A DNA stretch of 64,000 bases from Amoebidium appalachense (lineage: Eukaryota > Protista > Ichthyosporea), in the NCBI GenBank assembly GCA_963693365.1, contig CAVNZM010000011.1:5030639-5094638 (forward strand), read 5' to 3'. The notes below the pieces were generated by a model that searched no databases, was not told where the DNA came from, and saw only the letters and a list, made by a program, of their open reading frames with translations. The position numbers were made by a program, and so were the translations under genes. Positions 734-17,405 of this stretch are shown here, in pieces. Within the stretch, counting starts at the first letter, position 1, and every line of letters starts with the position of its first letter.

Positions 734-3700
734 TCAGCCTCCAATAAGTCTGAATCATCCCCCACAATTGCAATGGGTACACAAAGGTTTCAAGAATGTG
801 GTACACAGTAAAACAAAATACAAAATAAAAAGGGTAACATGGTGCAGGGAATGCAAACAAGAAGTGGAGAAAAAAAGGGGTGTGTGTGTGTGTGTGTGTG
901 TGTGTGTGTGTGTGTGTGTGTGTGTGTGTGTGTGTGTGTGTGTGTGTGTGTGTGTGTGTGTAATTTTCTGTCTTTTTTTTTTTTTTTTTGGAGCGGAGGG
1001 GGGGGGGGGAGGGGAGGGGGAGGGAGGGGGGGGGGGGGGGGGGGGGGGGGGGGGGGCTTGCATACCCACTGACTGCTGTGGCCACACCACTCCAAGCAGC
1101 CTCCTGATGTGACGTCATAGCAGTGCCCAGTCCCTCCTTGACTGCCAAAAATAGCGCCTGTGGTATGTTCAAAATTAGCGTGAGTTTTAATGGATACTTT
1201 AATAGCTGATGTTTTGCTTGTTTTTAGTACCGTATTGATCGATATGCTTCAGAGCACCATTTCAGCAGTTACCAACGGCGCAAATGGAGAGAGAAGGGGG
1301 GAGGAGGGGGGGGGGGGGGGGGGGGGGGGGGGGGGGGAATCAGAGATCTATATGTTGATTTTGCAATGGTTGCATTTTCCTACTTTTTTTATAGTTTTTA
1401 TGGAACCTTGATACATTGGAAAGCTCTAACATCAGTTTTTCAGTAATCCCAATCGTTGCCTAGCAATGCAATGCTAGCTAGAGGAACTAACACAAAAATT
1501 CCGCATGAACCTTAACTTCACTTTCTCTCTACCACCCTTACATCATCAACTAAAATCAGTGAGGTAAGGCTGAAAAGTGCAAATAAAAAAAAGCTGACAT
1601 TGGAAATTGGCAGATAGGAGTGGGTTAGGAACTTTTGGAGCGACCCGGGAGTGAAGAAAGGGAGATGAGAGGGAGAAGAGAGGGGGGGGGGGGGGGGGGG
1701 GGGGGGGGGGGGGGGGGGGGGAGGGGAGAAGGGGGATGATTAGAATGCACTACAAGTACAAGTCATACATTTACGACAGACAACATAATGCAATCATGCA
1801 GATTGCAAAGCCCACACAAAGAGTATGTATCATAAGCAGAGCCATCTTCAGAGGTGCCCAAGTCATCCATAGAACTCGAGCTTCGACCAATTCATCTAAA
1901 CGTTGGGGGGGGGGGGGGGGGGGGGGGGGGGGGGGGGTGATGTACACGTTAAGAGGGTTGGAAATATGGAGGAGACAACAAAGAGAAGGGGGAGGAGGGG
2001 GGGGGGGGGGGAGGGGCGGGATTCCACGACATACCCGGGTGGCTGGTTCAAAATATGCCACCTGCATGCCTGGGATGGTGGTGTGATGGGCACCCAGACG
2101 GAAAAGCTCCTTGATCTGTGTGTGTTTGTGTATGTGTGTGTGTGTGTGTGTGTGTGTGTGTGTGTGTGTGTGTGTGTGTGTGTGTGTGTGTGTGTGTGTG
2201 TGTGTGTGTGTGTGTGTGTGTGTGTGTGTGTGTGTGTGTGTGTGTGTGTGTGTGTGCGCGCGCGTGTGTGCGCGTGCGCGTGTATCTGCATTCGTGCGTT
2301 CAAGAGTGAGTGTGTGCATGTATATGCCCGCTGGTGTGTGCTTGCATACATTGTGTTTGCATGCGTGAAGAGGGAAGGTGGGGAAAGTAGATTGAGTCTC
2401 AAACTACCCAGTGATATCTGTTAAGGCTTACTTGCTCTGCAGAACCGTTACTACATATCACGGTGTTGGGGGCATAGTAAGAGGTGGCAATATATATATA
2501 TATATATATATATGATAAGGTACTGTCTGGACCTCATGTGATATATGGATTCTTAGATATAGCGCTGTCCGTTCCAGCATCTTAGATAGTTTCATGTGGC
2601 TAAACTGTAAGTATTCCTCCCCCTCCCCCCAACCCACCTTCCAACCACCACCATCACCACACACACATAAACAGACACCCATATGCAAGGTTTGAAAGAA
2701 AAATGATACACACGCAAAGACCATGCATTAGAAGGTGGGTGAGTGGGTGGGGGGAGGGGGGGGGGGGGGGTGAGAAAGGGGGGGGAGGGGGGGGGGGGGG
2801 GGGGGGGGGAAGGGGGGAAAGGGGTGAATGGTGCTCACCTTCTTGAAGTCGTCGAAATCCAGTATTGTCCGAGCAATGTTGAAAGGGATTTTTGCCTACA
2901 CCAAGGCAAGAGGTATGTGTTAGAAAAGAGACGACCAAGTCTTTCTCTCGTGTGCATCATGTGTCCCTACATATTCTTTGACCCACCTATTTCCACCCTT
3001 GTCCGCACTTTTCCGCCAATTCGAGCAGTGGCATTAAATTCCGGTTATCGGCGGAGGTTCTCCACAACGGATACTTGCTTTGTTCGAGAACACCCCCCCC
3101 CCCCCCCCCCCCCCCCTCCCTCGTCCGCGCCTTTCCCTCGCTTTCCACCACCCGACACCTTACAAACCAGTTCGTAAAGCTGAAAGAAAGGGGGGGGGGG
3201 GGGGGGGGGGGGGAGAAGAGGAAGTGGGAAAGGAGGGGGGGGGGGGGGGGTAGTAGTTCTTTTTGTCGTGGTGGTGGTGCGTGCGTTCAGGGATAGGTGG
3301 TCTGGTGGGAGTGTGGGTGAGGTATGGAGAAAAGGGATGGGTGGGTGAAAGAAGGGGGCACGAGGCAGGTGTCTTGTGTGTGTGTGTGTGGGGGGGGGGG
3401 GGGGGGGGGGAGGGGGGGGGGGAGGGGGGGGAGGGGGGGGGGGGGGGGGGAAGGGGGGGTTCACCTTGTCATATTTTGTGCCCGAAATTACGGCCTTGAC
3501 ACCGGGTACAAGGGCATAGAGATGCTTGTAGTATGCTTTGATGATCTGGTCTGTGGGTTGTGTTTTAAGAAATTGGGTGAGGAAAGGGGCGGGTGGCGCT
3601 GGGGAGGGGGGGGGGGGGGGGGGGGGGGGGGGGGGGGGGGGGGGGGGAGGGAGGGGGGCTATATTATAAAACCAAATGTGCAATCATTCCGGCATTCCTG

Positions 3701-16900: not shown

Positions 16901-17405
16901 GGCAATTAACATTTTTCGGCACCAATTTAAACAAACGATGCCTACACCATGACAATGAGGTACCATCCGTTAACTTTAGATCATCGACCCGACAATTCCT
17001 TTCCCCCCCCCCCCCCCCCCCCACCCCCGGCTTCCCTTCCCACCACGCCCTCTCTCCTTGTTTGCAGCAAAAAAAAAGATGACCACATCTGCAAGAAAAA
17101 TAAAGCCATGGTATATGGCCAGTTACAAAGAGGTATGACTGTGTGCCGTGTGGAAAAGGGGAGGAACGAAATCTTACGGAGTGTCAGATGTGTGCAGTCG
17201 TGCAGAAACATCCGGTATAAATAAATACCGGGAGGATATTCATGCAAATCACACGCTACAAACTCAAAATGACTCCAATGAATCACGCCTATGAACCCAC
17301 CTCGCTCGGATCTATGTTTGAGAGGACGTATGTCAGTACATCCGCCTCCACAGCGCCCGTGGCCCCACTGTTTTCCAGCCACGAACGCGATTTTGGCGCA
17401 TCCAT
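7911..17405 (-). CDS. RGS-globin fusion, module A (N-terminal), followed by a Ser/Pro-rich linker or tail
   Basis: CCACCATGG start at 17405. Exons 17405-17301, 15215-15076, 13840-13717, 12488-12402, 11786-11688, 10473-10336, 9362-9271, 8473-8409, then uncertain exons near 8225-8189 and from 8008. RGS part: [30 protein letters not shown]...[20 protein letters not shown]...[21 protein letters not shown]. Globin part: IIRSSWQ...[27 protein letters not shown]...LYELGRHH...[43 protein letters not shown]. Confidence 0.88.
10475..10781. repeat. About 41-bp minisatellite (GTGATTGGTGGGTTGGCAGATCTGGTTTAGATCGCTGCATT), roughly 7-8 degenerate copies
   Basis: Directly visible tandem units, some with internal deletions; abuts the splice acceptor of exon 10473-10336. 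Confidence 0.85.
10951..11190 (+). mobile_element. Interspersed repeat IR-1, longest near-consensus copy (non-autonomous SINE/MITE-like element, class undetermined)
   Basis: Near-identical to 25503-25671 and similar to 49463-49612; weaker matches at 1739, 12621, 47061 and 51484. Confidence 0.75.
12621..12892 (+). repeat. Diverged IR-1 copy including the distal ACCCGTCTTGATCA.AGACGAGCAGGGTTG segment
   Basis: Both ends match 10951-11190. Confidence 0.7.

What the first reader, a model, noticed from the sequence alone, without database searches (positions are those of the whole stretch)
734..17405. Tandem RGS-globin fusion: candidate heme/gas-sensing regulator of heterotrimeric G proteins
Seen: spliced exons give two colinear modules in which the last RGS helix (..SLPKFKT / ..SMSKFKT) runs within one exon, with almost no linker, into a globin A helix (IIRSSW / LVVEAW). 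Each globin keeps A12 Trp, C2 Pro, proximal F8 His (LGRHH / LGAHH) and H8 Trp. Established: RGS boxes are G-alpha GAPs; described chimeric eukaryotic globins include flavohemoglobin, androglobin, Leishmania HemAC and C. elegans GLB-33 (7TM-globin). I do not recall a described RGS-globin. Inference: O2/NO/CO or redox state of the heme could gate G-alpha deactivation through a continuous helix, making this a receptor-independent gas input to G-protein signalling. The ORF track hides it because every exon is 143 nt or shorter.
Basis: partly seen in the sequence, partly recalled or inferred. Interest (0 to 1): 0.93.

Follow-up and report, generated by a model that had tools for sequence, protein, structure and literature searches.

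The report
Four-fold RGS-globin G-protein regulator gene
This is a real, spliced and expressed gene of a single-celled relative of animals that repeats four times a G-protein switch-off domain joined directly to a haemoglobin-type domain, a design listed once in a 2014 supplement but apparently never studied, which likely lets haem ligand or redox state tune G-protein signalling at the membrane.

Summary
The fusion is real. An 18-exon minus-strand model (17405 to 162, all introns GT-AG) matches two ORFs of one transcriptome contig labelled Amoebidium parasiticum (424 and 169 identical residues). Nineteen other RGS+globin records were found, named ones from ichthyosporeans, rhizarians and a stramenopile. 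All 28 modules have the same spacing, which leaves no linker between RGS helix 8 and globin helix A; AlphaFold makes them one helix. Window modules keep the RGS4 Glu87 and Asn128 equivalents and the proximal His, but have Lys for Arg167 and atypical pockets (CD1 Ile, E7 Lys). The architecture is not new: de Mendoza 2014, supplementary figure S6, lists RGS//Globin. My searches found no functional study, and this scan noted it before on other DNA (clubroot parasite; reverse order in foraminifera). Haem binding, GAP activity and coupling are untested; haem-gated GAP 0.45.

The parts
17301..17405 (-). exon 1, start codon in a GCCACCATGG context, aa 1-35 (start of RGS1)
   Evidence: identical to P0001
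15076..15215 (-). exon 2, RGS1 helices 3-5 (E48 = RGS4 E87; S49 at N88)
   Evidence: (Pfam RGS E 0.087 alone)
13717..13840 (-). exon 3, RGS1 with N93 = RGS4 N128
12402..12488 (-). exon 4, RGS1 helices 7-8 running into globin 1 helix A (K134, F135, W147)
11688..11786 (-). exon 5, globin 1 B-C-CD-E start (B10 F164, C2 P172, CD1 I178, E7 K185)
10336..10473 (-). exon 6, globin 1 E-F-G with proximal F8 H215
9271..9362 (-). exon 7, globin 1 G-H (H8 W253)
   Evidence: (Pfam Globin E 0.011 alone)
8409..8473 (-). exon 8, end of globin 1 and start of the Ser/Pro-rich linker (low confidence in the model)
7693..7781 (-). exon 9, inter-module linker
6568..6678 (-). exon 10, linker and start of RGS2
5785..5927 (-). 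exon 11, RGS2 helices 3-5 (E363, N364)
4824..4941 (-). exon 12, RGS2 with N409 = RGS4 N128; the transcript record changes frame at an A run in this exon while the window frame stays open
4018..4123 (-). exon 13, RGS2 helices 7-8 into globin 2 helix A (K450, F451, W463)
3465..3550 (-). exon 14, globin 2 B-C-CD-E start (B10 Y480, C2 P488, CD1 I494, E7 K501)
2839..2895 (-). exon 15, globin 2 E helix
2035..2115 (-). exon 16, globin 2 F helix with F8 H531
1066..1157 (-). exon 17, globin 2 G-H (H8 W569)
162..263 (-). exon 18, end of globin 2 and link to module 3; the gene continues beyond position 1
734..749 (-).

Best explanation
The gene encodes a protein of four tandem RGS-globin modules ending in a CaaX motif, which is likely prenylated and held at the membrane, where modules 1 and 2 likely act as GTPase accelerators for G-alpha subunits and haem ligand or redox state would tune that activity through the helix that RGS and globin share. 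Shown: exon structure, expression as a spliced transcript, domain identity, four modules, the CaaX sequence, and a fixed 12-residue spacing from the RGS4 Phe168 position to globin A12, so that globin A1 follows directly and takes the place of RGS helix 9. Predicted: one continuous helix and a rigid module. Inferred: haem binding by F8 His, GAP activity, and transmission of pocket changes to the G-alpha-contacting Arg167 position (Lys here) on the first turn of the shared helix. Modules 3 and 4 (outside the window) keep F8 His but have lost the GAP signature, so they would be sensor-only or structural. The ligand is open: with CD1 Ile and E7 Lys, redox state, NO or CO is at least as likely as reversible O2 binding.
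For: Transcript-derived P0001 and P0004 come from one contig and match the window model for 424 residues (up to the frame change) and 169 of 169 residues. Pfam RGS and Globin are above cut-off; Foldseek returns neuroglobin (E 5e-4, TM by target 0.75) and RGS16 (E 5e-3 to 8.5e-3). Spacing is 12 in 28 of 28 distinct modules (29 of 29 rows with both anchors, one row a duplicate). AlphaFold gives helix 118-153 at pLDDT 86-96 in P0001 and a helix 8/helix A continuum at 149-165 and 433-449 in relative P0008. pTM 0.59 with about 250 of 433 residues in module 1 fits a rigid module (inference). 16 of 28 modules keep E87 + N128 + R/K167, and 15 of these 16 also keep F8 His (counted). N128 and R167 are needed for GAP activity in RGS4 (passages of PMC7895990 and PMC11065749). 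6 of 20 fusion-set proteins end in C-x-x-x against 4 of 129 other hits (Fisher p 4e-4, kin not independent), and 5 more have a hydrophobic C-terminal segment. One origin of the fused globins is not rejected (27 rows against 61, p-AU 0.585). Ferric neuroglobin binds G-alpha-i as a GDI, a precedent for haem state acting on G-alpha (passages of PMC4842972).
Against: No biochemical data exist. Both window RGS domains lack the E83 and D163 equivalents and have Lys for Arg167; module 1 has Ser for Asn88 and a one-residue gap at the helix 7/8 bend, so GAP activity may be weak. Both window globins have Ile at CD1 (Phe in 25 of 25 non-Amoebidium rows) and Lys at E7 (His or Gln in 22 of 25), and are long branches that fell outside the main fused clade in the free tree (support 26). 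In globins the A helix is among the least ligand-responsive parts (own knowledge), so a shared helix may be only structural. 12 of 28 modules have lost the GAP signature. RGS domains combine with very many partners (PMC3971589 passages), so fusion alone does not imply allostery.
Confidence: 0.45

Rival explanations
1. An active RGS and a haem globin are tethered without allosteric coupling: the globin handles NO, O2 or electrons at the membrane, or simply completes the RGS fold in place of helix 9, and GAP activity is constitutive.
For: The RGS match ends at profile position about 101-112 of 117 in P0001 and the fusion relatives, so helix A may be needed for folding, which alone explains the fixed spacing. 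The closest solved globins by profile are single-domain bacterial F-family globins such as Hell's Gate globin I (E 5e-33). F8 His stays in modules whose RGS has decayed.
Against: No reductase domain is fused in any of the 19 relatives. The Arg167 position sits on the first turn of the shared helix, and 15 of 16 GAP-signature modules keep F8 His.
Confidence: 0.25
2. The Amoebidium copy has drifted into a G-alpha-binding effector or scaffold with little GAP activity, with the haem domains as output or with a non-gas ligand in a remodelled pocket.
For: E83 and D163 equivalents are lost and R167 is Lys in modules 1 and 2; modules 3 and 4 lack the signature; pockets are atypical; long branches. Some RGS domains are known to have lost GAP activity (PMC3971589 passage).
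Against: E87 and N128 equivalents are kept in both window modules although these share only 72 of 252 aligned residues. Gly at the D163 position is the family norm (16 of 30 rows).
Confidence: 0.18
3. The globin itself contacts G-alpha as neuroglobin does (oxidation-dependent GDI), so each module is a two-handed GAP plus GDI regulator, like RGS-GoLoco proteins in effect.
For: Neuroglobin is the top sequence and structure match of the window globin; ferric neuroglobin is a GDI for G-alpha-i/o; GoLoco is reported absent outside animals and choanoflagellates.
Against: Identity to neuroglobin is only 24-28%. Neuroglobin's acidic CD-region contact residues lie in a region that is short and Lys/Ser-rich here (residue-level equivalence not established).
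Confidence: 0.1
4. The fusion is an annotation or assembly artefact of neighbouring RGS and globin genes.
For: The transcript record is split into two ORFs by a frame change, and I obtained no raw-read support.
Against: RGS and globin sequence share single exons; transcript-derived proteins match the window exactly; 19 other records share the architecture and spacing.
Confidence: 0.02

Closest known systems
RGS//Globin and Bactofilin//RGS//Globin architectures (de Mendoza et al. 2014, PMC3971589, supplementary figure S6)
   Same: Same domain order; the study included the Amoebidium parasiticum transcriptome. Bactofilin-RGS-globin was recovered here in Chrysoparadoxa.
   Different: There it is only a row in a heat map (species cells not readable in the text copy), with no discussion. 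Four modules, zero linker, CaaX tail and residue conservation are not described in the text I saw.
R4-type RGS proteins (RGS4, RGS16, RGS18)
   Same: RGS fold and E87 and N128 equivalents.
   Different: Helix 9 is replaced by globin helix A; E83 and D163 equivalents are absent and R167 is Lys in the window modules.
F-family 3/3 globins: neuroglobin, Hell's Gate globin I
   Same: 3/3 fold, A12 Trp, C2 Pro, F8 His, H8 Trp; neuroglobin also acts on G-alpha.
   Different: Fused to RGS; CD1 Ile and E7 Lys instead of Phe and His/Gln; neuroglobin acts in trans as a GDI.
Globin-coupled sensors (S family; HemAT, kinase and cyclase types; PMC7475203 passages)
   Same: Works like them in the proposed logic: haem state controls an attached signalling output.
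   Different: The globin is C-terminal to the output and F-family-like, not an N-terminal S-family domain; the output is a G-alpha GAP.
7TM-RGS receptors of plants and protists (PMC3971589 passages)
   Same: Input would act by regulating GAP activity rather than nucleotide exchange.
   Different: No transmembrane sensor (highest 19-residue hydropathy 0.87 in the window model and 1.42 in P0004); the sensor is a soluble globin.

Membership tests
RGS domain (PF00615) | profile score above the curated cut-off | tested here: met
   65.1 bits against 23.9, two stretches
RGS domain (PF00615) | RGS helical fold | tested here: met
   AlphaFold model; Foldseek RGS16 chains at TM by target 0.58-0.76; helix 9 replaced by globin helix A
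GAP-active RGS (RGS4 type) | G-alpha contact residues E83, E87, N88, N128, D163, R167 | tested here: inconclusive
   module 1: I, E, S, N, gap, K; module 2: M, E, N, N, G, K; modules 3 and 4 lost. Positions were mapped by motif through RGS16 alignments; part of the RGS4 numbering is recalled
GAP-active RGS (RGS4 type) | accelerates GTP hydrolysis on G-alpha | not testable with these tools
3/3 globin (PF00042) | profile above cut-off and myoglobin fold | tested here: met
   31.9 bits against 22; neuroglobin TM by target 0.75-0.81
3/3 globin (PF00042) | proximal His F8 | tested here: met
   present in all four modules
3/3 globin (PF00042) | Phe at CD1 and His/Gln at E7 (canonical pocket) | tested here: not met
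   Ile and Lys in both window modules, gapless from C2 to helix E against relatives
3/3 globin (PF00042) | binds haem and diatomic ligands | not testable with these tools
Globin-coupled sensor (S family) | N-terminal S-family (protoglobin-like) globin | tested here: not met
   the globin follows the RGS and no Protoglobin family hit appears at E up to 1
Flavohaemoglobin | FAD- and NAD-binding reductase domains | tested here: not met
   none in P0001 or P0004
RGS//Globin architecture of PMC3971589 fig. S6 | Pfam RGS followed by Pfam Globin in one protein | tested here: met

The most novel reading that the evidence does not exclude
RGS-globin is an ancient eukaryotic family of intracellular, lipid- or tail-anchored haem sensors in which the globin A helix is also the G-alpha-contacting helix of the RGS domain, giving gas or redox state a direct, receptor-free handle on G-protein shut-off. 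The Amoebidium gene is a four-module array in which two GAP-competent modules carry a re-tuned Lys-E7 pocket (possibly a sixth haem ligand) and two GAP-dead modules act as extra sensors.
Probability: 0.35. Interest if true: 0.88.

Novelty: new variant of a known kind. Interest (0 to 1): 0.6.

Why it matters
Known inputs to heterotrimeric G proteins come through receptors, Ric8-type exchange factors or 7TM-RGS proteins. A haem-controlled GAP would be a new input route and one of few eukaryotic globin-coupled signalling outputs. It sits in the close unicellular relatives of animals as well as in rhizarians and a stramenopile. It would offer an evolutionary context for the neuroglobin/G-alpha link. 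A 250-residue soluble module is easy to express and assay, and could serve as a gas- or redox-switched G-protein tool. If coupling is absent, it is one more RGS domain combination.

Tried and rejected
No whole genome is held for this window. Raw-read or contig support for junctions was not obtained, so transcript support rests on two EukProt ORFs of one contig; the exon 12/13 junction and residues 425-442 are covered by neither ORF. The run search listed 24 runs; the best held 0.28 and 0.13 of the words and the rest 0.07 or less, probably repeats; none was laid, so none is used as evidence. Single exons mostly fail Pfam: of 14 scanned, one hit RGS, one Globin and one an unrelated family weakly. 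Word-index searches found only P0001 or P0001 and P0045; the family came from the exhaustive search, which lists only 150 of 323 hits. VIA-align was busy on four tries. The complex-prediction tool (module dimer with haem) was not available. The idea that tandem modules pack as a fixed pseudo-dimer got no support: P0008 model pTM 0.45, from an 11-row alignment. My first exon model had exon 9 out of frame and ended at 734; both were corrected. The free globin tree left the four Amoebidium domains outside the main fused group. It used 60 of 126 outgroup domains drawn at random, and P0051, which has no Pfam RGS, was left out of the clade test. A paper id recalled from memory for Anantharaman et al. 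2011 is not held; one paper search timed out.
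Full report
Observation. Reading the minus strand and translating candidate exons gave an intron-rich gene starting at 17405. After correction the model has 18 exons in the window, 17 of 17 introns GT-AG, a longest exon of 143 nt and 611 codons without a stop. 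A search with exon 6 among longer proteins returned 1 hit of 6 candidates, P0001, 100% identical. Its record is an ORF of a transcriptome contig labelled Amoebidium parasiticum, an ichthyosporean. P0001 equals the model for 424 residues and then changes frame at an A run in exon 12; the window frame stays open, so a homopolymer error in the transcript assembly is the likely cause (inference). P0004, from the same contig, starts at model residue 443 and matches 169 of 169 residues. No reads were laid, and residues 425-442 with the exon 12/13 junction are in neither ORF.

Correction of extent. P0004 passes from exon 1157-1066 to exon 263-162, not to the stop at 734, and continues beyond the window. 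A profile built from 16 relatives without Amoebidium finds modules at 137 and 111 bits in the window model and two further modules in P0004 at 60.6 and 72.7 bits. The implied protein has 1327 residues, four modules and a C-terminal CaaX motif. Modules 1 and 2 share 72 of 252 aligned residues, and 5 of the 7 introns inside the aligned part of module 1 recur at the same codon and phase in module 2, which points to an old duplication inside the gene.

Domains and fold. Pfam gives RGS (E 9.7e-18) and Globin (E 2.1e-7), both above cut-off. PDB sequence matches are neuroglobins and RGS18, RGS16 and RGS5; with the family profile the best are bacterial single-domain globins such as Hell's Gate globin I, then RGS16. 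AlphaFold on a 17-row alignment gives mean pLDDT 77.1, pTM 0.59, one helix from 118 to 153 across the junction and a low-confidence linker at 272-338. Foldseek returns neuroglobin and RGS16 as separate matches, and no chain among the listed rows covers both parts. In the two-module relative P0008, helix 7 is broken from helix 8, but helix 8 and globin helix A are again one helix; pTM 0.45 gives no support for fixed packing between modules.

Family. The exhaustive search found 323 representatives at E up to 0.001 and listed 150. I scanned 45 of the 149 non-self hits in Pfam: 18 of 25 and 1 of 20 carry both domains. The module profile found no further full-span fusion among the listed hits. Of 20 hits looked up, named records are Amoebidium, Pirum gemmata (Ichthyosporea), Plasmodiophora brassicae, Leptophrys vorax, Paulinella micropora (Rhizaria) and Chrysoparadoxa australica (Stramenopiles); the rest are unnamed or metagenomic (the placement of Plasmodiophora and Paulinella is from my own knowledge). 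The spacing from the RGS4 Phe168 position to globin A12 is 12 in 28 of 28 distinct modules (profile alignments lean towards no gaps, but MAFFT shows none there either). A1 therefore follows directly, with no linker. In a quick tree of 88 globin domains, 23 of 28 fused-set domains form one group (SH-aLRT 92), while the four Amoebidium domains are long branches outside it; holding 27 together is not rejected and scores 6.9 log-likelihood units higher (p-AU 0.585). One ancient origin or transfer is thus allowed, not shown. Six of 20 proteins end in C-x-x-x against 4 of 129 other hits, and five others have a hydrophobic tail; several records are fragments.

Functional residues. Passages of PMC7895990 and PMC11065749 state that Y84, N128, L159 and R167 matter for RGS4 GAP activity and that helices 7 and 8 contact switch I. 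Sixteen of 28 modules keep E87, N128 and R/K167; 15 of those keep F8 His. Window modules 1 and 2 are among them, but with Lys at 167, no E83 or D163 equivalent, and Ser at 88 in module 1. Modules 3 and 4 have lost the signature, as have the second modules of P0008, P0011, P0016, P0030 and P0058. All four Amoebidium globins keep F8 His. Against the reading of a plain O2 sensor, both window globins have Ile at CD1 and Lys at E7, where the 25 non-Amoebidium rows have Phe in 25 and His or Gln in 22. That both window modules share this change suggests a re-tuned rather than decayed pocket (inference). Lysine as a distal haem ligand is recalled from Chlamydomonas THB1; one search gave only a search listing.

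Mechanism. I commit to a membrane-held GAP tuned by haem state through the shared helix (0.45). Rivals are an uncoupled globin (0.25), a GAP-weak scaffold or effector (0.18), a neuroglobin-like GDI hand (0.10; passages of PMC4842972) and an artefact (0.02). Shown are the gene, its splicing, the domains and the spacing; the helix is predicted; haem binding, prenylation, GAP activity and coupling are inferred. A passage of PMC10073611 lists an NO synthase in the ichthyosporean Sphaeroforma arctica, so NO is a plausible ligand in this group; I did not test Amoebidium for it.

Prior knowledge. PMC3971589 (passages; supplement search; part 2 of 2 of supplementary file 3; file 1 could not be searched) lists RGS//Globin and Bactofilin//RGS//Globin in figure S6, and its main text has no occurrence of globin. 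Searches for 'RGS-globin' and for 'RGS domain' with 'globin domain' returned 0 papers. Searches listed 13, 19, 3 and 2 papers, seen as listings, none describing the fusion by title or abstract start. The review PMC7475203 has 0 occurrences of RGS, as has PMC4101818. PMC11061236 was seen as passages and not relied on. Earlier notes of this scan report the same design in the clubroot parasite and a reverse-order globin-RGS family in foraminifera; I had found the supplement before that look-up, and nothing was noted near this window.

Verdict. A real and well-conserved fusion, catalogued but apparently uncharacterised; this member is a four-module, CaaX-tailed variant with unusual pockets. New variant of a known kind, interest 0.6.

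Noticed in passing
window 440-521 (+): tRNA-Ser(AGA) gene inside intron 17 of the RGS-globin gene, on the opposite strand.
   Followed up: partly
window about 5064-5020 (-): Short imperfect copy of the exon 12 acceptor and first codons just upstream of exon 12, seen by eye; possible cryptic acceptor.
   Followed up: no
window about 11185-11000, 12880-12620 and 1900-1740 (-): Three related copies of an intronic element of about 200 nt, seen by eye; probably a dispersed repeat.
   Followed up: no
window 19463-21565 (+), 39475-42290 (+), 61687-62583 (-): ORFs that read like reverse transcriptases of non-LTR retroelements, the first an open 700 aa frame, the others in pieces (motif recognition from own knowledge).
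   Followed up: no
window about 24500-32750 (-): Spliced gene with many MORN-like repeats (by eye).
   Followed up: no
window about 34700-36135 (+): Exons of a hexapeptide-repeat protein resembling gamma carbonic anhydrase family members (by eye).
   Followed up: no
window about 55470-56400 and 59200-60800 (+): PH-domain-like and Sec14/CRAL-TRIO-like coding stretches (by eye).
   Followed up: no
P0025, P0026: Bactofilin-RGS-globin three-domain proteins in a stramenopile and a metagenome record; a polymer-forming domain on the same module.
   Followed up: partly
P0002, P0003: Unnamed proteins with 14 and 12 tandem globin domains.
   Followed up: no
P0126, P0140, P0046: Globin fused to PAS domains, to CheW, and to pentapeptide repeats among the search hits.
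   Followed up: no
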